Shown here: positions 3,614 to 16,717 of the stretch, piece after piece
Position numbering within the stretch: position 1 is the first letter of the stretch
Layout of the letters: every line of letters begins with the position of its first letter
Assembly (NCBI GenBank): GCA_964346185.1
Contig: CAYFTR010000006.1
Location: 33,916 to 57,915, forward strand
From: an uncultured Lachnospiraceae bacterium
GTDB taxonomy: Bacteria > Bacillota > Clostridia > Eubacteriales > Eubacteriaceae
Direction: 5' to 3'
DNA length: 24,000 bases
Notes under the pieces: generated by a model
What the model saw: the letters and a program-made list of their open reading frames with translations, nothing else
Databases searched by the model: none
Told to the model about the DNA's origin: nothing
Position numbers and translations under genes: made by a program

Positions 3614-3642
3614 TATACATAAAATTAAGCTTGTGTTATAAT
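3614..3642 (+). promoter_or_regulatory. Extended -10 promoter (TATACA-17 nt-TGtTATAAT) driving the radA-ruvA intergenic RNA
   Basis: TATAAT at 3637-3642 is preceded by TG at 3634-3635. The -35-like TATACA lies at 3614-3619. Confidence 0.55.
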
Positions 3643-3649
3643 ACCTGTA

Positions 3650-3873
3650 CTGGGGTGTGCGTTATCGACTATTTTTGAACCTACACCATTAATACGAGAA
3701 CCCGCGTTTGTTTTTAGATGTCAAGCCTCTATAAGTGGACGGCAGAAGAAAGCAACAGGGTACTCACCTAGTCATTCGCTAGGGCGTCAAAAATAAGAGA
3801 CGGCACCTTGGTATTGCGTATAACGCCGTGCCATTTCGGATTATAACCATCAATCCGAAATGGCACGGCGTTT
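3650..3873 (+). ncRNA. Unclassified structured RNA of about 220 nt: a candidate 6S-like sRNA, or a terminator-containing leader of the ruvA operon
   Basis: Bounded by its own promoter and an 18-bp terminator hairpin, with no credible ORF on either strand. A long imperfect closing helix pairs 3652-3673 with 3810-3832 (perfect 7-bp core GCGUUAU 3659-3665 with AUAACGC 3820-3826). The U-rich single-stranded stretch CUAUUUUUGAACC follows at 3669-3681. Confidence 0.4.
3823..3873 (+). terminator. Intrinsic terminator hairpin with a short U-tract
   Basis: ACGCCGTGCCATTTCGGA (3823-3840) is perfectly complementary to TCCGAAATGGCACGGCGT (3854-3871). The loop is 13 nt and the hairpin is followed by TTTAT. 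Confidence 0.75.
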
Positions 3874-3909: not shown

Positions 3910-4506
3910 ATGTTCGATTATATTAAAGGTAAAATAGCCCATCAAAGAGAGGATGCCGTTGTTGTTGATATAAACGGTATGGGTTATTTAATTCATATCA
4001 ATTTAAAAACAGCCTCAGAAATACCGGAAAGCCATCGGGAGGTTATCCTTTATCTTTATCCCGTTTTTAAAGATGACAATGTTGCCTTATACGGCTTTTT
4101 TCATTTAGAAGAAAGAGAAATGCTTAAGACATTAACGACGGTTTCGGGTATCGGTGTGAAAGGGGGGCTGGGAATATTGTCCTATTTTACAGTTGAAACG
4201 CTGATAAGCCACATTGTCAATGAAGATATTAAGGCTTTGAGCCAAGCACCGGGTATCGGGAAAAAAACCGCTGAACGTTTAATTTTTGAATTAAAGGACA
4301 AGTTTAAAGATGTTTTAGATAATAAGACATCGGAGCCTGAACAAACAATCGGAGTAGTAAAAAGTATCCACGACGAAGTGGTTGAAGCTTTGGTTACTTT
4401 GGGGTATTCTTATTCTGAAGCTCGGGCAAGTGCTAAAAAAGCCTACCGGGAAAACACCACCTTGGAAGAAATGATTAAGGAATGCTTGATTCTTTTAGCG
4501 CAATAA
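3910..4506 (+). CDS. ruvA: Holliday junction branch migration complex subunit RuvA
   Basis: N-terminus MFDYIKGKI, helix-hairpin-helix motifs ([22 protein letters not shown]) and a C-terminal domain III. RBS AAAGGA lies upstream. Confidence 0.95.
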
Positions 4507-4510
4507 TACG

Positions 4511-5542
4511 ATGAAAAAAAGATTTATCACAACCGAATTTACCGAAGCGGACATTGAAATAGAAAAAAGTCTGCGTCCACAATTTATGACGGAATATATC
4601 GGTCAAAATAAGGTAAAAACCCAATTAAATATTTTTATCCAAGCGGCTTTAAAAAGAAAAGAACCTCTGGATCATGTGTTGTTGTACGGACCGCCCGGCC
4701 TGGGAAAAACCACCCTTGCCGCAATTATTGCCAACGAAATGGGTACCGACATAAAAACCACGTCCGGACCGGCAATCGAAAAACCCGGCGATCTTGCCGC
4801 CATATTAACAGGTTTAAAAGAAGGCGACGTTTTGTTTATCGACGAAATACATCGCTTACAAAGAAGTGTGGAAGAAGTTCTTTATCCAGCCATGGAAGAC
4901 CAAAGTCTGGACATTGTTATCGGAAAGGGGGCGGGGGCAAAGGCCATTCGTATCGATTTGGCACATTTTACCCTGGTTGGGGCAACCACAAGAGTCGGTT
5001 TATTGACCGCACCTTTACGAGATCGCTTCGGAGCGGTGTTGCGTTTAGATCTATACGATGACCGCAGTCTAAGCGAAATTATCAAACGTTCGGCACAAAT
5101 ATTAAAGGTAAAGATCGACGATGCGGGAACCATGGAATTGGCAAAACGCTCCAGAGGAACACCCAGAATATCCAACCGACTGCTCAAACGGGTGCGGGAC
5201 TACGCAGAAGTTAAAACCGAAGGCCGCATCGATTTGGACACGGCAAACAAAGCCTTAAAACTTTTTGAAATTGACGAAAACGGACTGGATGAAACCGACC
5301 GTGCCATGCTTTATATGATTTATGCTCACTTCGACGGTGGTCCCGTGGGGTTAGATACCCTTGCCGCCGCCCTCGGAGAAGAGCGGGATACCATCGAAGA
5401 AGTTTACGAACCTTATCTTATTCAGAAAGGGTATTTGGCAAGAACCTCCAGAGGCCGTATCATCACCTCGAAGGGCTGCAAGCAGATTGGTCTTGTGCCT
5501 CTTAATCAAAATGAAGAACAAATAACCGTGGAGGAGTTGTAA
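4511..5542 (+). CDS. ruvB: Holliday junction DNA helicase RuvB
   Basis: [13 protein letters not shown], Walker [10 protein letters not shown], Walker [10 protein letters not shown] and [11 protein letters not shown]. It lies directly downstream of ruvA. Confidence 0.97.
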
Positions 5543-5549
5543 AACACTA

Positions 5550-7719
<2,170 letters not shown>

Positions 7720-7720
7720 C

Positions 7721-8113
7721 ATGGGAAATCTTTCGGGTAGCGGTTTGATGAGCTTTTTACCCCTTATTGCAATGGGATTATTCTTTTACTTTTTTATCAT
7801 CAGACCTCAATCCAAACAAAGAAAGCAAATAGAAGATATGCACGCAACGCTTTCCATCGGAGATGAAGTGCAAACATATAGCGGTTTTTACGGTATTATC
7901 TACGCGATCGACGATGAAAACGTCGTGTTGGAAATGCTGCCGGATTTCACAAAATTAATGATTGCAAAAGCCGCGATTTCAAAGGTTATCACAGCGGATG
8001 AAGCTGTCGTTACAGACCGCGGTGCAGTGAATACCGACCCAAAGGATGAAGAGATTACCACAGAGTACAACGATGCGAAAGTTGAAGACGCCGAGTACGA
8101 AGATTTAAATTAA
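7721..8113 (+). CDS. yajC: Preprotein translocase subunit YajC, with an acidic C-terminal extension
   Basis: A single N-terminal TM segment is followed by IIRPQSKQRKQ and the GDEV.T..G..G motif. It starts 1 nt after the tgt stop, matching the usual tgt-yajC synteny. Confidence 0.85.
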   Translation: MGNLSGSGLMSFLPLIAMGLFFYFFIIRPQSKQRKQIEDMHATLSIGDEVQTYSGFYGIIYAIDDENVVLEMLPDFTKLMIAKAAISKVITADEAVVTDRGAVNTDPKDEEITTEYNDAKVEDAEYEDLN

Positions 8114-8123
8114 GGAGAAAAAA

Positions 8124-8264
8124 ATGAAACACATCAAAATTATCAACAAAGGCAATCTTTCAGAAATTAAAAATAAAGGTTGCGGCGAATGCCAAACTTC
8201 TTGCCAATCGGCTTGTAAAACCTCTTGTACCGTAGGCAACCAACAATGCCGTCAAAGTAAGTAA
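8124..8264 (+). CDS. scfA: Six-cysteine ranthipeptide precursor SCIFF (46 aa; below the ORF-track length cutoff)
   Basis: RBS GGAG sits 8 nt upstream of ATG 8124. The translation is MKHIKIINKGNLSEIKNKGCGECQTSCQSACKTSCTVGNQQCRQSK. It carries the hallmark GCGECQTSCQSACKTSCTVGNQ core with six Cys and lies immediately upstream of a radical-SAM/SPASM enzyme. Confidence 0.9.
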   Translation: MKHIKIINKGNLSEIKNKGCGECQTSCQSACKTSCTVGNQQCRQSK

Positions 8265-8340
8265 CAAAAAACAACCTCCATCTAAAAACAAAAGAGTATT
8301 ATTTGGGGCAACTTTAAAAACCTATAGTTATCAAACAGTA

Positions 8341-8367
8341 AAAGAGCAGTTACAGACTGCTTTTTTA
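8341..8367 (+). terminator. Weak hairpin plus T-tract between scfA and scfB (candidate partial terminator/attenuator)
   Basis: AGCAGT (8345-8350) pairs with ACTGCT (8356-8361) around a 5-nt loop, followed by TTTTTT. Flanking A/T pairs can extend the stem. Confidence 0.45.
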
Positions 8368-8414
8368 ATTGAAACAATTGCATTGTTTTGAAAATCCGAT
8401 TAAAGGAGAATACA

Positions 8415-9770
8415 GTGGTTCATCAGTTTTATAGAAAAGGGTATTACGTCGTATTAGATGTAGATACCTCAACACTAATGACTGTCGACGCTATGACCTA
8501 TCGTCTCATTGAAGACTTTATGCGTTTAAACAGACAGGAATTGGTCGAAAAATATGCACCGGAATACGGCAAGCGACAGGTCGCCGATGCTGTCGATGAA
8601 ATACAGAGCATGGTGGATGACGGGCTTTTGTTTACCGATCACCGATACGATCCGTCATTTTATCGCGGTCATGACGGCGTTAAGGCACTTTGTCTACACA
8701 TTGCCCACGACTGCAACTTAAAATGCGAATACTGCTTTGCCTCCCAAGGAGACTTTAAGGGCGAGCGTTCACTAATGTCCCTCGAAGTGGGAAAAAAAGC
8801 CGTTGACTTTGTTATTGAAGCCTCAAATCAACGTAAAAATATAGAAATCGACTTTTTCGGCGGAGAGCCTTTAATGAACTTTGATGTGGTTAAAAACATT
8901 GTTGATTACGCACGTCAACGTGAAAAAGAAACCGGCAAACATTTCAACTTTACCATGACCACCAACGGTGTATTACTGGACCGGGAAAAGCGGGATTATC
9001 TCAACGCCAATATGAACAATATCGTTTTAAGTCTGGACGGTCGAAAGGAAGTAAACGATCGGGTTCGCAAAACACTCAACGACAAAGGTTCTTACGAAAC
9101 CATTGCCGACAATATTTTTAATATGGTTGAGGAGCGGGGAGATAAAGAATACTATGTTCGCGGCACCTACACCAAATACAACCCGGACTTTTCAAAGGAC
9201 GTTTTATTTTTGGCACAACAGGGAGTTAAGGAGATCTCCGTCGAACCCGTCGTTGCTAAAGCAGATCGGGATTACGCCGTTTTGAAAGAGGATTTACCGA
9301 GAATTTTGGAAGAGTACGACACCTTACTCGACGAAATGATTGAAGATTATCGCAAAAACGGGGAAGAATCTTTTCGCTTTTTTCACTATATTTTGGACAT
9401 GAATAACGGCCCTTGTGTTTACAAACGTCTGTCCGGATGCGGTGCGGGCAACGACTATCTGGCAGTAACCCCCGAGGGCGATTTATACCCCTGTCACCAA
9501 TTTGTTGGGGAAGAGACCTTTAAATTAGGAACATTGGATACCGGTTTAGAAAAAAAGCTAATGACCGAAGATTTTAAAAAAGCCAATTTACTGGAAAAAG
9601 AAGCGTGTCAAAGTTGCTGGTGTAAATATTTTTGTGGCGGCGGTTGCCACGCCAATGCCTATAATTTTAACCAAACGCTTTTAAAACCCTATGATGTTGC
9701 CTGCGAAATCGAAAAAAGACGTGTGGAAAACGCTCTGATTCTTCAAATAATAAAGAATGAAGAATATTGA
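8415..9770 (+). CDS. scfB: Thioether cross-link-forming SCIFF peptide maturase (radical SAM with SPASM domain)
   Basis: GTG 8415 follows AAAGGAG (8403-8409); the track start 8388 is a likely 5' extension. It has the radical SAM CxxxCxxC motif (CNLKCEYC), and a C-terminal Cys-rich SPASM region (CVYKRLSGCGAG...PCHQF...CQSCWCKYFCGGGCHANAY). It is adjacent to the SCIFF precursor. Confidence 0.9.
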   Translation: MVHQFYRKGYYVVLDVDTSTLMTVDAMTYRLIEDFMRLNRQELVEKYAPEYGKRQVADAVDEIQSMVDDGLLFTDHRYDPSFYRGHDGVKALCLHIAHDCNLKCEYCFASQGDFKGERSLMSLEVGKKAVDFVIEASNQRKNIEIDFFGGEPLMNFDVVKNIVDYARQREKETGKHFNFTMTTNGVLLDREKRDYLNANMNNIVLSLDGRKEVNDRVRKTLNDKGSYETIADNIFNMVEERGDKEYYVRGTYTKYNPDFSKDVLFLAQQGVKEISVEPVVAKADRDYAVLKEDLPRILEEYDTLLDEMIEDYRKNGEESFRFFHYILDMNNGPCVYKRLSGCGAGNDYLAVTPEGDLYPCHQFVGEETFKLGTLDTGLEKKLMTEDFKKANLLEKEACQSCWCKYFCGGGCHANAYNFNQTLLKPYDVACEIEKRRVENALILQIIKNEEY

Positions 9771-9796
9771 CAATTTAAAAGCATAAAGTTTATACT
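9767..9796 (+). promoter_or_regulatory. Near-consensus sigma-A promoter (TTGACA-18 nt-TATACT) overlapping the scfB stop
   Basis: TTGACA at 9767-9772 and TATACT at 9791-9796. The predicted start near 9803 coincides with the first base of the RNA's outer helix. Confidence 0.6.
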
Positions 9797-9802
9797 TAAA
9801 AT

Positions 9803-10039
9803 CTCCTGAGTCTGTGGTTGAAAATCAATGCCAGTCGCAGGCGAAATGATCCACGTAAGGCTTATAAAAATCTAAAAAGCTGAGCATAGTGCGGCTTAGA
9901 AGTAAGTCCGGCCGACGCAGTCGAGAGGAAGAGTCGTGAATAGCTAAATTCCCAGCCGGCGAGTGTGGGGGTAAAGACCAGGTCAGTCAGGAGAGCTGCA
10001 GCCGAGTCTGCTCGTAATGAGCAGGCTCGGCTGCTTTTT
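9803..10039 (+). ncRNA. Stand-alone structured RNA of about 235 nt immediately upstream of hpf/raiA: a candidate raiA-motif RNA
   Basis: It has its own strong promoter and a 16-bp terminator. No credible ORF is present; the minus ORF 9862..10152 spans the terminator and a promoter. The 5' and 3' ends pair (CUCCUGA 9803-9809 with UCAGGAG 9987-9993, CUG 9812-9814 with CAG 9984-9986, UGGUU 9815-9819 with GACCA 9976-9980). There are GC-rich internal complementarities (CCGGC 9908-9912 with GCCGG 9955-9959). The position directly 5' of hpf matches the described raiA-motif locus. Confidence 0.5.
9998..10039 (+). terminator. Strong intrinsic terminator
   Basis: GCAGCCGAGTCTGCTC (9998-10013) pairs with GAGCAGGCTCGGCTGC (10019-10034) with one G-U pair. 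The loop is 5 nt and TTTTT follows. Confidence 0.85.
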
Positions 10040-10189: not shown

Positions 10190-10249
10190 CATCTTACATT
10201 CAACCGTTCATTCATCAGAAATCAACGACATTTGAAAGGAGTAGCAATA

Positions 10250-10901: not shown

Positions 10902-12485
10902 ATGGTATTTTTATTCGCCATTTTAACTGGCATTATCATAGGATCTTTAAGAAAAGGTACAATATCCAATATCAAGTCGACGCCGTTATCTCTATTACCC
11001 TTAGGTTTGATCGGCATCGTTGTTCAAATTGCACTACATTTTTCCGTATATTTTCCTTCAGCAAATTCATTAGACATGGTGATACCGGTACTTAACTTGG
11101 TTTCATACGTTTTTATTTTGGTGATGTTAACCTTTAATCTGGATGAAGTCTGGAACGTTATGATGGTCGTCGGAACGATGGCCAATTTTGTCGTTACATT
11201 TATGAATGCGGCAAAAATGCCCGTTGCAGCAGATATTATCGCATCGATCGATCAAACCCGTTTGGGTCAAGCCGTCATTGCACAGAACAATCTATCCGGT
11301 GGCTTAATTGAACACTTGAGTATCTTTACACAAATTGATTTACAGACCACAAAATTGTGGTTTCTGGGTATCAATATCAAGATACCCTTTATGGAATACC
11401 TGTCTCCACACTACGGTGCGGTGCCGGGTATAACGATCGGAACTATATTGGTGTTAATCGGTATTATAGGTTGGGTTCAATCAGCAATGACACATAAAGA
11501 AGAAGTGACAACGGTCGAAGAAAACGAAATAGAAGCTGTCGCAGAACAGCCGGCTATTGAACAATCCCCCATAATCCTAAATACGGAAACAACCAAGGCC
11601 ATCGACAATTTAAAAGAACTGGATACCGAACCCGAATTGCAGATCTTACCTGTATCGGAAAAGGAAGACGTAAAAATAGTTGCGGATGAAAAGTCGGACA
11701 CCGTGCCTTACATTAAAGTGGTACCTCAAAAAGAAGATCAAGGCGAAAAACCCCAAGGATTTTTCACACAAAACTTTTATGCTGAAAAAGAAAAAAGCAT
11801 GCATAAGGAAGCAGCTGTTCAACCGCCTAAAGAAGAAGTTCAAGAAACAAAAACGGCTGCCTCTGCCGAGAGCCTCGACACAGAGGTAAAAGTAGCGGAG
11901 CAAACGCACAAAGAACGTAAAGCAACAACTGATACGGATATTTTGGGACCATCAATCTTGGAAGTGCTGAATAAAGAAACAATTCGTACGGAAGAATCCT
12001 TTTTTAATGAGTCGAAGCCGACAGAAACGGAAAAGGAAGAAGAAGCGTTACCGGTACGCAAACAAAAGCCCATTATTGTTACAACCGGTGGTAGTAACAG
12101 AGGAAGAAGTAGAAAAATGAGTCAACCCAAGAAAAAAATCGGTTTAAATGAAGATGATATGCGTAATGTATGGCAAAGTGTTGCAAAAGAAAACCAAAGG
12201 CTTAAACAGAGAGGTCGCGGCTACGTAATAGAAGAACAACCGAAAAAATCGGAGGAAAAAAGATTCTATACAAAACCTGTCGGCACCGAAAAAGCAGATC
12301 AGAAACAAGAACAGGATTTAATCAACCAGAAGATTGATGAAACGGCTTTTTCCGTAACAAAGCCTTTAAGCTTCGGTGATGAAACGCCGATAAACACCGA
12401 CGATGCCCTTCGGGAAAAAGCAGGGTACGAAAAAGTACATGTAACCATAGAAGGGAAAGAAATTTCCTATTGGAAAAAGGTCTGA
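10902..12485 (+). CDS. Membrane protein with a DUF5317-like N-terminal domain and a roughly 330-aa E/K/T/Q-rich low-complexity C-terminal region
   Basis: The N-terminus MVFLFAILTGIIIGSLRKG and about 6 TM segments (aa 1-197) resemble DUF5317 proteins of Clostridia. Residues from about 198 to 527 are highly charged and biased. Several spurious ORFs open in other frames over 11.5-12.1 kb, as expected for purine-rich coding. Confidence 0.6.
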   Translation: MVFLFAILTGIIIGSLRKGTISNIKSTPLSLLPLGLIGIVVQIALHFSVYFPSANSLDMVIPVLNLVSYVFILVMLTFNLDEVWNVMMVVGTMANFVVTFMNAAKMPVAADIIASIDQTRLGQAVIAQNNLSGGLIEHLSIFTQIDLQTTKLWFLGINIKIPFMEYLSPHYGAVPGITIGTILVLIGIIGWVQSAMTHKEEVTTVEENEIEAVAEQPAIEQSPIILNTETTKAIDNLKELDTEPELQILPVSEKEDVKIVADEKSDTVPYIKVVPQKEDQGEKPQGFFTQNFYAEKEKSMHKEAAVQPPKEEVQETKTAASAESLDTEVKVAEQTHKERKATTDTDILGPSILEVLNKETIRTEESFFNESKPTETEKEEEALPVRKQKPIIVTTGGSNRGRSRKMSQPKKKIGLNEDDMRNVWQSVAKENQRLKQRGRGYVIEEQPKKSEEKRFYTKPVGTEKADQKQEQDLINQKIDETAFSVTKPLSFGDETPINTDDALREKAGYEKVHVTIEGKEISYWKKV

Positions 12486-15618: not shown

Positions 15619-16717
15619 GTGATCGATGTTTATGAAATTAAACAAAGCATTGAAGAAATGAACGATTTACTGATAAAGCTGGGTGATTCACTTTGACTTA
15701 CCGAGTTTAAGAAGAGAAATCGAAACTTATACGAAAGAAACGGAACAACCGGACTTTTGGAGCGACAGCGACAAAGCCCAAAAAATTTTAAAAAAATTAA
15801 AGCAACTTAAATACAAAGTAGATCAATATGACCGTTTGACCGACGATCTGGACGACTTTAAAATTATGCTGGAATTACTGGAAGTCGGTGAAGAGGTCGG
15901 AAATATCGACAAAGAGCTGGCCGCTTACCGCGAAGGATTGGAAAACTTTAAATTGGAAACCTTACTTTCCGGCGAGTACGACGGCAACAATGCCATTATT
16001 TCAATTCATTCCGGTGCCGGGGGCACCGAATCCCAGGACTGGGCGGAAATGCTCTTACGTATGTTTACCCGTTGGGCGGAGAAAAAGGGTTATAAACTGA
16101 AAACGCTGGACTTACAACCGGGCGATGTCGCCGGTATTAAAAGTGCAACCATTTTAGTAGAAGGAGTAAATGCCTACGGTTATCTGAAAACGGAAAGAGG
16201 TGTCCACCGATTGGTGCGTATCTCTCCTTTCGACTCCTCCGGCAGACGCCACACCTCCTTTGCCTCTCTGGATGTGGTACCGGAAGTGGACGACACGGTA
16301 GAAATAGACATTAACCCCGACGATATTCGCGTGGATACCTATCGTGCCAGCGGTGCCGGCGGGCAACACGTCAACAAAACCTCCTCTGCGGTGCGTATTA
16401 CCCACATACCGACGGGCATTGTTGTTCAATGCCAAAACGAGCGTTCCCAACACCAAAACAGAGATGTTGCCATGAATATGCTCAAAAGTAAACTCATCGA
16501 AGTCCTGGAGCAGGAAAACAAAGAAAAACTGGACGATATAGTTGGCGACTACTCTCAAATTGCTTGGGGTTCACAAATCAGATCCTATGTGTTTCACCCC
16601 TATACCATGGTAAAAGACCATCGTACCAATGTGGAAATGGGCAATATTCAATCCGTAATGGACGGAGATATCGACCCTTTTATGAATGCCTACTTGCAAC
16701 AACAAGTGAAAGCTTAG
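15619..16717 (+). CDS. prfB: Peptide chain release factor 2, requiring a programmed +1 frameshift at 15691-15697
   Basis: Frame 0 runs from GTG 15619 (MIDVYEIKQSIEEMNDLLIKLGDSL) to the in-frame TGA at 15694-15696. The +1 frame continues DLPSLRREIE... to 16717. The SPF tripeptide (RISPFDS) and GGQ (SGAGGQHVN) are present. The track shows only the downstream frame. Confidence 0.95.
15681..15697 (+). promoter_or_regulatory. prfB recoding site: internal Shine-Dalgarno-like GGGUGAU plus the slippery CUU UGA C
   Basis: GGGTGATTCACTTTGAC. GGUGAU matches the extended anti-SD complement. CTT TGA C is the canonical RF2 shift site. Confidence 0.85.

What the first reader, a model, noticed from the sequence alone, without database searches (positions are those of the whole stretch)
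8124..9770. Unlisted 46-aa six-cysteine (SCIFF) ranthipeptide precursor plus radical-SAM maturase appended to the ruvAB-queA-tgt-yajC operon
A small ORF below the track cutoff (8124-8264) has a good RBS 10 nt after the yajC stop. It encodes MKHIKIINKGNLSEIKNKG-CGECQTSCQSACKTSCTVGNQQCRQSK. The Cys-rich core matches the SCIFF family almost residue for residue. The next gene has CxxxCxxC plus a SPASM domain, as expected for the thioether-forming maturase. The enzymology of this RiPP pair is characterised, but its physiological role is still poorly defined. Here it appears co-transcribed with recombination, queuosine and secretion housekeeping genes rather than with a transporter, protease or immunity gene. 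That argues for an intracellular or regulatory role rather than a classical bacteriocin.
Basis: partly seen in the sequence, partly recalled or inferred. Interest (0 to 1): 0.7.

Follow-up and report, generated by a model that had tools for sequence, protein, structure and literature searches.

The report
Known SCIFF peptide and maturase pair
The small unlisted gene and its neighbour are a real but already well-known pair, a six-cysteine "SCIFF" peptide and the radical-SAM enzyme that cross-links it, and they sit where most Clostridia keep them, so the finding is correct but ordinary.

Summary
ORF 8124-8264 encodes the 46-aa peptide exactly as reported. It scores 76.6 bits on the SCIFF model TIGR03973 (cutoff 50).

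ORF 8415-9770 scores 618.6 bits on the ScfB maturase model TIGR03974 (cutoff 425). It stays below the "not_ScfB" and anaerobic-sulfatase-maturase cutoffs. It aligns end to end with the crystallised CteB (E 6e-153).

The pair is a textbook member of a family that is nearly universal in Clostridia. Its position is not a local novelty. In 80 related loci the usual order is ruvAB-queA-tgt-yajC-(TIGR04086 membrane protein)-scfA-scfB-secD/F. This Eubacteriaceae lineage lost the membrane-protein gene and the secDF link, which leaves scfA 10 nt behind yajC, with the yajC stop codon inside the scfA ribosome-binding site.

Co-transcription with yajC is therefore likely here, though it is not universal in the family. 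A hairpin plus T-tract between scfA and scfB is conserved in 56 of 75 loci and probably attenuates transcription into the maturase.

The literature already argues against a bacteriocin role. The "intracellular" reading is not supported: the published phenotypes are read as quorum sensing, and the family context is membrane and secretion linked.

A raiA non-coding RNA lies directly downstream of scfB. Interest is low.

The parts
3910..8113 (+). Upstream housekeeping operon: ruvA (3910-4506), ruvB (4511-5542), queA (5550-6584), tgt (longest ORF 6526-7719, true start probably later) and yajC (7721-8113). The genes are packed with gaps of 1 to 7 nt.
   Evidence: All five score above the NCBIfam equivalog cutoffs. 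No convincing intrinsic terminator lies on the + strand inside this stretch.
8112..8117 (+). Shine-Dalgarno AAGGAG of scfA. It overlaps the yajC stop codon TAA (8111-8113) and lies 6 nt before the ATG.
   Evidence: Read directly from the sequence. The same stop-in-SD layout (TAAGGAG or TAGGAG) occurs in L083, L001, L010, L012 and L015.
8124..8264 (+). scfA, the 46-aa SCIFF ranthipeptide precursor. The leader is MKHIKIINKGNLSEIKNKG and the core is CGECQTSCQSACKTSCTVGNQQCRQSK.
   Evidence: TIGR03973 76.6 bits against cutoff 50; PF13165 81.7 bits. Comparison with 78 orthologues. Codon-position variation.
8339..8370 (+). Terminator-like hairpin in the scfA-scfB gap. The core stem-loop is 8344-8362 (GAGCAGTTACAGACTGCTT, -8.1 kcal/mol), extendable to 13 bp over 8339-8367, followed by the tail TTTTAATT. 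It is a probable partial terminator (attenuator).
   Evidence: Fold of the gap gives z -2.77. A hairpin plus T-tract of dG -8 or lower is present in 56 of 75 scfA-scfB gaps, against 6 of 35 control gaps upstream of scfA. Shuffles average -1.9 kcal/mol. The function is inferred.
8403..8408 (+). Shine-Dalgarno AAGGAG of scfB, 6 nt before the GTG start at 8415.
   Evidence: Sequence. The GTG start is supported by end-to-end alignment with TIGR03974 (positions 1-450) and with CteB from its first residues.
8415..9770 (+). scfB, the 451-aa radical-SAM/SPASM SCIFF maturase. It has an N-terminal leader-binding (RRE-type) region, the C100/C104/C107 radical-SAM cluster motif, and SPASM cysteines C334, C342, C360, C398, C401, C407, C411 and C430.
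   Evidence: TIGR03974 618.6 bits against cutoff 425; not_ScfB 540.6 against 855; anSME 120.4 against 349. Pfam Radical_SAM, Fer4_12 and SPASM hits. CteB 5WGG E 6e-153 over residues 1-443. Invariant cysteines in the 13-sequence alignment.
9998..10034 (+). First strong intrinsic terminator downstream of scfB (17-bp stem plus T-run). It belongs to the raiA RNA gene (9801-9995) and is also where any read-through from scfB would end.
   Evidence: No terminator lies between the scfB stop (9770) and the raiA RNA start (9801).

Best explanation
This is an ordinary scfA-scfB module, a SCIFF precursor and its radical-SAM/SPASM maturase, in a Eubacteriaceae genome, at the family's ancestral chromosomal position behind yajC.

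Proposed mechanism:
1. scfA has no promoter of its own here. It is transcribed with ruvA-ruvB-queA-tgt-yajC, or from an internal promoter-like site in the 3' end of tgt. It is translated from a Shine-Dalgarno that overlaps the yajC stop codon (inferred from anatomy).
2. A weak hairpin plus U-tract after scfA stops part of the transcripts, so the peptide mRNA exceeds the maturase mRNA. scfB is made by read-through (inferred; the hairpin is conserved family-wide).
3. ScfB binds the conserved leader through its N-terminal domain and cleaves SAM at the CX3CX2C cluster. It then joins the fourth cysteine (Cys31 here) to the side chain of Thr33 or Thr36 as a non-alpha thioether, as shown for the orthologues CteB/CteA and Tte1186/Tte1186a (by homology; not tested here).
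4. The product serves a conserved, non-bacteriocin role. Published knock-outs in two Clostridium species point to signalling that affects sporulation and agr genes. Export and leader removal remain unexplained.
For: - Family assignment.
- Extreme purifying selection on the peptide.
- scfA lies directly upstream of scfB in 78 of 80 related loci.
- yajC lies within 2 kb upstream in 18 of 62 loci.
- secD/secDF lies downstream in at least 48 of 71 loci.
- TIGR04086 lies upstream in 34 of 68 loci.
- The same ruvAB-queA-tgt-yajC-scfA-scfB order holds in Acetobacterium, strain ES2 and the closest MAG.
- The stop-in-SD junction recurs in two families.
- No promoter-like site lies between 7613 and 8388.
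- The hairpin after scfA is conserved: 56 of 75 against 6 of 35 control gaps.
- Enzymology and phenotypes come from PMC8326336, PMC8172795, PMC10177961 and PMC8102284.
Against: - No expression or mass-spectrometry data exist for this organism.
- The hairpin here is weak (-8.1 kcal/mol for the core stem), and its terminator activity is untested.
- The hairpin and synteny counts are not corrected for shared ancestry. The 80 loci are the best tblastn-scoring matches to the query among at least 597, and about half are Lachnospiraceae.
- In vitro and in E. coli only one thioether was found, and its acceptor is disputed (Thr37 or Thr34 in CteA). The mature natural product is therefore unknown.
- This clade differs slightly from the consensus. 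It has one Gly instead of two before Cys1, and Arg, Lys or Gln instead of the near-invariant Glu after Cys6.
Confidence: 0.85

Rival explanations
1. scfA is transcribed on its own, from a promoter inside or just after yajC, and is only physically adjacent to the housekeeping operon.
For: In other lineages with gaps of 70-130 nt (L005, L016, L070) TATAAT-like boxes precede scfA. L005, L016 and L052 also have a terminator-like hairpin after yajC. Independent transcription therefore does occur in the family.
Against: Here the gap is 10 nt and is filled by the Shine-Dalgarno. The scan finds no promoter-like site between 7613 and 8388 on the + strand and no terminator after yajC.
Confidence: 0.12
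2. The SCIFF product works at the membrane together with the Sec accessory proteins (YajC, SecDF) and the TIGR04086 membrane protein, rather than as a free cytoplasmic or diffusible regulator.
For: - scfAB lies between yajC and secD/F in most lineages.
- After rearrangement in Lachnospiraceae it stays joined to secDF, and in 4 of those loci the order is scfAB-secDF-tgt-yajC.
- In Eubacteriaceae and Peptoniphilaceae it stays joined to yajC with a coupled junction.
Against: - yajC...secDF is an old, vertically inherited Firmicutes gene block (own knowledge of the E. coli and B. subtilis gene order). An element inserted there can stay by inertia.
- This lineage and the Peptoniphilaceae keep scfAB without secDF or TIGR04086 next to it.
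- The leader has no hydrophobic signal-peptide region.
- No paper in the searched library links the two.
Confidence: 0.15
3. It is a classical antimicrobial RiPP (bacteriocin) whose transporter, protease and immunity genes lie elsewhere in the genome.
For: Related radical-SAM thioether peptides (sactipeptides) are antimicrobial (PMC8326336). Only 24 kb of this genome was seen.
Against: - The core is almost identical across families of Clostridia, with one copy per genome reported (bioRxiv 10.1101/2025.02.12.637840). This is the opposite of the diversifying pattern seen in bacteriocins.
- No transporter, protease or immunity family recurs next to the pair in 80 loci.
- The literature argues against an antimicrobial role (PMC8326336).
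Confidence: 0.03
4. The enzyme belongs to another SPASM clade (anaerobic sulfatase maturase, QhpD, PapB or the ScfB-like orphan group), and the small ORF is incidental.
For: Weak cross-hits to many SPASM families are expected and were seen.
Against: - TIGR03974 is the top hit, at 618.6 bits against a cutoff of 425, and the only family model passed (the generic SPASM-domain model TIGR04085 is also passed).
- not_ScfB scores 540.6 against 855.
- PapB scores 281.7 against 340.
- QhpD scores 251.4 against 453.
- anSME scores 120.4 against 349.
- The SCIFF peptide is adjacent, as the family definition requires (PMC5300114).
Confidence: 0.01

Closest known systems
CteA/CteB (thermocellin) of Clostridium thermocellum; CteB crystal structures 5WGG and 5WHY
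   Same: ScfB aligns with CteB over residues 1-443 (E 6e-153), including the N-terminal peptide-binding domain, the CX3CX2C motif and all SPASM cysteines. The peptide keeps the fourth Cys and both candidate acceptor Thr residues (Cys31, Thr33 and Thr36 here, against Cys32, Thr34 and Thr37 in CteA).
   Different: The leader is one residue shorter, with a single Gly before Cys1. Arg replaces the near-invariant Glu after Cys6. There is no biochemical data for this orthologue.
Tte1186a/Tte1186 of Caldanaerobacter subterraneus (first SCIFF pair characterised in vitro)
   Same: It belongs to the same family (TIGR03973/TIGR03974), has three [4Fe-4S] clusters, and forms one thioether from the fourth Cys to a Thr five residues downstream (PMC8326336, PMC10177961).
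   Different: It could not be compared directly because the sequence was not retrieved. Its regiochemistry is not established.
Canonical clostridial SCIFF locus (yajC-TIGR04086-scfA-scfB-secD/secF), as seen in L004, L008, L013, L019, L030 and L078
   Same: The upstream block ruvAB-queA-tgt-yajC is the same, scfA lies directly before scfB, and a hairpin follows scfA.
   Different: The window lacks the TIGR04086 membrane-protein gene and secDF. scfA is fused to the yajC translation unit, and the raiA RNA, hpf, DUF5317 gene, secA and prfB follow instead.
PapA/PapB (freyrasin) and QhpD
   Same: They are related radical-SAM/SPASM enzymes that make non-alpha thioethers (the ranthipeptide chemistry).
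   Different: Scores are below both family cutoffs (281.7 against 340; 251.4 against 453). PapB makes six Cys-Asp links on a different Cys-X3-Asp repeat peptide.
Leaky terminators after the precursor gene in lantibiotic operons (for example nisA-nisB; own knowledge)
   Same: A hairpin plus U-tract sits between the precursor gene and the modification gene. This arrangement is thought to give excess precursor mRNA with read-through for the enzymes.
   Different: This is an analogy of regulation only. The chemistry and enzymes differ, and the function was not tested for SCIFF.

Membership tests
SCIFF precursor (TIGR03973 / PF13165) | Scores above the curated cutoff of the family model | tested here: met
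   TIGR03973 76.6 bits against 50 (E 1e-21). PF13165 81.7 bits against 27.
SCIFF precursor (TIGR03973 / PF13165) | Six cysteines in about 45 residues with the conserved core CGECQTSCQSACKTSCTV | tested here: met
   46 aa with Cys at 20, 23, 27, 31, 35 and 42. The core is identical to 71 of 79 compared peptides.
SCIFF precursor (TIGR03973 / PF13165) | Encoded next to a ScfB radical-SAM maturase (within 500 bp, PMC5300114) | tested here: met
   The scfA stop at 8264 is followed by the scfB start at 8415, a gap of 150 nt.
SCIFF precursor (TIGR03973 / PF13165) | Occurs in Clostridia | tested here: met
   ScfB is 100% identical to a protein of an NCBI MAG. The nearest named relatives are Eubacteriaceae: Acetobacterium, Pseudoramibacter and Eubacterium.
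SCIFF precursor (TIGR03973 / PF13165) | Peptide is expressed and carries a thioether cross-link | not testable with these tools
   This needs RNA-seq or proteomics, plus mass spectrometry looking for a -2 Da product.
ScfB SCIFF maturase (TIGR03974) | Scores above the TIGR03974 cutoff and below the cutoff of the exception model for ScfB-like orphans | tested here: met
   618.6 bits against 425. NF040492 not_ScfB scores 540.6 against 855.
ScfB SCIFF maturase (TIGR03974) | Radical-SAM CX3CX2C motif | tested here: met
   C100-N-L-K-C104-E-Y-C107, invariant in the alignment. PF04055 and PF13353 hits.
ScfB SCIFF maturase (TIGR03974) | C-terminal SPASM domain with the cysteines for two auxiliary [4Fe-4S] clusters | tested here: met
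   PF13186 25.6 bits against 21.5. TIGR04085 70.3 bits against 27. C334, C342, C360, C398, C401, C407, C411 and C430 are invariant.
ScfB SCIFF maturase (TIGR03974) | N-terminal leader-peptide recognition domain as in CteB | tested here: met
   Residues 1-90 align with CteB residues 6-97 in the full-length match. Some homologues carry a PqqD-type Pfam hit. No structure was modelled here.
ScfB SCIFF maturase (TIGR03974) | Catalyses Cys-to-Thr non-alpha thioether formation on ScfA | not testable with these tools
   Shown only for orthologues (PMC8326336, PMC8172795).
Anaerobic sulfatase maturase (TIGR03942) | Scores above the family cutoff | tested here: not met
   120.4 bits against 349.45. The PDB anSME match is only E 5e-14.
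Classical bacteriocin/RiPP cluster | Dedicated transporter, leader protease or immunity gene next to the precursor | tested here: not met
   None is in the 24-kb window. None recurs among the neighbours in 80 loci.

The most novel reading that the evidence does not exclude
The SCIFF module may be functionally tied to the Sec accessory machinery. It sits between yajC and secDF across Clostridia. It stays linked to secDF in Lachnospiraceae after rearrangements, and it is translationally coupled to yajC in this lineage. Its cross-linked, cysteine-rich product could therefore act on or with the YajC-SecDF membrane complex and the TIGR04086 membrane protein, rather than as a free signal. No paper in the searched library makes this link.
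Probability: 0.15. Interest if true: 0.6.

Novelty: already known. Interest (0 to 1): 0.2.

Why it matters
For this window, the result mainly corrects an annotation gap. Short SCIFF genes are often missed; the closest relative's NCBI annotation also lacks the gene (L083). The physiological role of SCIFF is still poorly defined.

The comparative by-products may help design experiments on a peptide that most Clostridia, including gut commensals and pathogens, keep almost unchanged:
- the conserved placement between yajC and secDF;
- the conserved hairpin after scfA;
- the stop-in-SD coupling to yajC in two families.

Tried and rejected
Literature that could not be obtained:
- Haft and Basu 2011, Bruender 2016 and Grove 2017 were not held by the library. 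What those papers say about gene context could not be checked, and statements about them rest on reviews.
- Full-text searches for SCIFF or ranthipeptide together with yajC, SecD/SecDF or translocase returned nothing relevant.

- The tool's terminator scan listed the 8345-8361 hairpin only on the minus strand. I checked the plus strand with my own scan and a fold.

Ideas considered and rejected:
- A double-glycine leader cleavage site. Most SCIFFs have GG before Cys1, but this clade has KG and others AG, and no C39 peptidase or ABC exporter is nearby.
- A promoter for scfB at 8388-8416. Its -10 box overlaps the start codon.
- Alternative SPASM clades were rejected on scores.

Other checks:
- I looked for the raiA RNA near scfB in all 80 loci with an nhmmer profile. 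It was found only in L001 and L003. That method is less sensitive than a covariance model.
- No structure prediction was run, because the full-length match to a solved orthologue made it unnecessary.
Full report
**1. Checking the observation**

The stretch 8124-8264 is an ATG-to-TAA ORF. It translates to exactly the reported 46 residues, with six cysteines.
- It scores 76.6 bits (E 1e-21) on the NCBIfam equivalog TIGR03973 "six-cysteine ranthipeptide SCIFF" (cutoff 50).
- It scores 81.7 bits on Pfam PF13165 (cutoff 27).

The yajC ORF ends at 8113, and the scfA ATG follows 10 nt later.

The next gene runs from GTG 8415 (AAGGAG six bases upstream) to 9770 and encodes 451 aa.
- It carries C100-x3-C104-x2-C107.
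- It hits Radical_SAM, Fer4_12 and SPASM.

**2.

- The enzyme scores 618.6 bits on TIGR03974 "thioether cross-link-forming SCIFF peptide maturase" (cutoff 425).
- It falls below the exception model for ScfB-like orphans (540.6 against 855).
- It falls below PapB (281.7 against 340), QhpD (251.4 against 453) and anaerobic sulfatase maturase (120.4 against 349).
- It aligns from its first residues to residue 443 with the crystallised SCIFF maturase CteB (5WGG, E 6e-153).
- All cysteines expected for the radical-SAM and the two auxiliary clusters are invariant in an alignment with 12 homologues.

Both genes are therefore bona fide family members.

**3. Organism**

The maturase is identical to a protein from an NCBI metagenome-assembled genome. 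The nearest relatives are labelled Eubacteriaceae: 82% to one MAG, and 55-60% to Eubacterium, Acetobacterium and Pseudoramibacter.

**4. Family comparison**

A scan of one genome per species returned at least 597 ScfB loci, and the 80 best were kept.
- scfA lies directly upstream of scfB in 78 of the 80. The other two are cut at the contig end.
- The core CGECQTSCQSACKTSCTV is identical in 71 loci but is encoded by 71 different DNA sequences. All 18 third codon positions vary, against only one first and one second position. This is about as strong as purifying selection on a translated product gets.
- This clade shows two small deviations. It has one Gly instead of two before Cys1. It has Arg, Lys or Gln instead of the near-invariant Glu after Cys6.

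**5. Gene context**

The window reads: PTS EIIC-like, vanZ-like, radA, 6S RNA, ruvA, ruvB, queA, tgt, yajC, scfA, scfB, raiA RNA, hpf, a DUF5317 protein, secA, prfB.

The position behind yajC is not special to this genome.
- yajC lies within 2 kb upstream of scfA in 18 of 62 loci with enough flank. These span several orders.
- Scanning the nearest neighbours of all loci gave a TIGR04086 family membrane protein just upstream in 34 of 68.
- secD/secF or secDF lies on the same strand just downstream in at least 48 of 71, and 35 of these are within 150 nt.

The canonical arrangement is ruvAB-queA-tgt-yajC-TIGR04086-scfA-scfB-(hexapeptide-repeat protein)-secD-secF (for the extra gene).
- Lachnospiraceae keep TIGR04086-scfA-scfB-secDF. 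In four of their loci tgt-yajC follows secDF.
- Eubacteriaceae (window, L001, L003, L081-L083) lack TIGR04086 and secDF at this site and have scfA 8-33 nt behind yajC, except Acetobacterium L081 (about 88 nt by the called genes).
- Peptoniphilaceae (L010, L012, L015) show the same losses and the same tight spacing.

In six of these loci, counting the window, the yajC stop codon is part of the scfA Shine-Dalgarno (TAAGGAG or TAGGAG). "Appended to the ruvAB-queA-tgt-yajC operon" is positionally right. However, the pair is better described as an old clostridial insert between yajC and secDF, with the secDF side replaced in this lineage.

**6. Transcription**

- From ruvA to scfA the genes are 1-10 nt apart.
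- The scan finds no promoter-like site on the + strand between 7613 and 8388, and no terminator after yajC. Co-transcription and probably coupled translation of scfA with yajC are therefore likely here. This is an inference.
- It is not a family rule. Loci with 70-130-nt gaps carry TATAAT-like boxes before scfA, and some carry a terminator after yajC.

The 150-nt gap between scfA and scfB folds better than shuffles (z -2.77) and contains a hairpin at 8344-8362 followed by TTTTAATT.
- A hairpin plus T-tract of -8 kcal/mol or better is present in 56 of 75 scfA-scfB gaps.
- Only 6 of 35 control gaps just upstream of scfA have one (Fisher p 2e-8).
- Shuffled gaps average -1.9 kcal/mol, against -12.1 observed.
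- These counts are not corrected for shared ancestry.

The stems differ in sequence between loci while the position is kept. The simplest reading is a partial terminator that gives more precursor mRNA than maturase mRNA, as is described for lantibiotic operons (own knowledge). This qualifies the claim that the whole pair is simply co-transcribed.

**7. Mechanism by homology**

Reviews report that Tte1186 and CteB each install one thioether. It runs from the fourth cysteine to a threonine five residues downstream in vitro, or two residues downstream in E. coli. The link is at the gamma carbon, which defines ranthipeptides (PMC8326336, PMC8172795, PMC10177961). The corresponding residues are all present here: Cys31, Thr36 and Thr33. 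The natural mature form is unknown.

**8. Comparison with what is known, and novelty**

- SCIFF was described in 2011 as nearly universal in Clostridia. That breadth was already taken to argue against an antimicrobial role (PMC8326336).
- Knock-outs in C. beijerinckii and C. ljungdahlii changed sporulation and agr expression and were read as quorum sensing (Chen et al. 2020, via PMC8326336 and PMC8102284).
- A recent pangenome study again finds one conserved ranthipeptide cluster per species (bioRxiv 10.1101/2025.02.12.637840).

The "intracellular" conclusion is not supported by the published phenotypes, nor by the membrane and secretion character of the conserved neighbours. The finding is an already known system.

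**9. What remains open**

I found no paper in the searched library that links SCIFF with yajC, SecD/F or translocase. The founding paper could not be read. A functional tie to the YajC-SecDF complex is the most novel reading the data allow. It is weakened in two ways. The yajC...secDF block is anciently conserved in Firmicutes. Also, this lineage and the Peptoniphilaceae retain scfAB without secDF beside it.

**10. Side observation**

A raiA motif RNA (172 bits) starts 31 nt after the scfB stop.
- The -35 box of its promoter contains the scfB stop codon.
- It has its own strong terminator.
- scfB-raiA adjacency recurs in L083, L001 and Pseudoramibacter L003. It is absent in Acetobacterium, in strain ES2 and in the other loci.
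- The usual upstream neighbour of this RNA is comFC (PMC10861870).

Noticed in passing
window 9767-10034: A raiA motif non-coding RNA (9801-9995, Rfam 172 bits) lies 31 nt after scfB. The -35 box of its promoter, TTGACA (9767-9772), contains the scfB stop codon, and a 17-bp terminator follows at 9998-10034. No terminator separates scfB from it, so operon read-through would run into the RNA. scfB-raiA adjacency recurs in L083, L001 and L003 (in L003 without hpf after it). It is absent in Acetobacterium, in strain ES2 and in the other 78 loci of the 80-locus set (the latter checked only with a less sensitive nhmmer profile). The usual upstream neighbour reported for this RNA is comFC (PMC10861870).
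   Followed up: partly
window 3614-3818: A 6S RNA gene (3644-3818, 80.9 bits) with a promoter-like site at 3614-3642 sits between radA and ruvA. No terminator was found before ruvA. The same placement occurs in L001, L081, L082 and L083.
   Followed up: partly
L004, L008, L013, L019, L030, L078 and about 30 other loci, just upstream of scfA: A membrane protein of about 125 aa from family TIGR04086 (function unknown) is the commonest upstream neighbour of scfA (34 of 68 loci), mostly with no terminator in between. It is absent from this window and from the Eubacteriaceae and Peptoniphilaceae loci.
   Followed up: partly
L004 11366-11890, L007 11287-11859, L019 6066-6566, L030 11356-11862, L078 7640-8170: A hexapeptide-repeat (left-handed beta-helix) protein of about 170 aa sits between scfB and secD in non-Lachnospiraceae canonical loci. 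In Peptoniphilaceae RecJ follows scfB instead, in L010 and L015.
   Followed up: no
window 10902-12485: A 527-aa protein lies between hpf and secA. Only an N-terminal DUF5317 match was found (residues 30-192), and the remaining 330 or so residues match no family. The same position is conserved in L001 and L083.
   Followed up: no
window 15619-15700: prfB shows the classic programmed +1 frameshift layout. A short ORF from GTG 15619 ends in CTT TGA C at 15691-15697, and the main frame continues from there. The NCBIfam match starts at model position 15.
   Followed up: partly
L083 6766-6906: In the closest relative (82% ScfB identity) the SCIFF gene is present (MKHIRIINQGNLSDIKNKGCGECQTSCQSACKTSCTVGNQQCQQSK) but was not called in the deposited annotation. 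A 95-aa ORF was called over the raiA RNA instead.
   Followed up: yes
L009 7389-10001; L057 9858-10001: These are unusual layouts. In a Romboutsia MAG a MurJ/SpoVB-like flippase and an HD-domain gene are inserted between scfA and scfB. In an Emergencia MAG the scfA stop overlaps the scfB start, with no hairpin.
   Followed up: partly
window 6526-6601: The longest tgt ORF overlaps the end of queA by 59 nt, and the family match begins at residue 26. The real tgt start is therefore probably further downstream. Likewise the hpf match begins at residue 7 of the TTG-started ORF at 10232.
   Followed up: no
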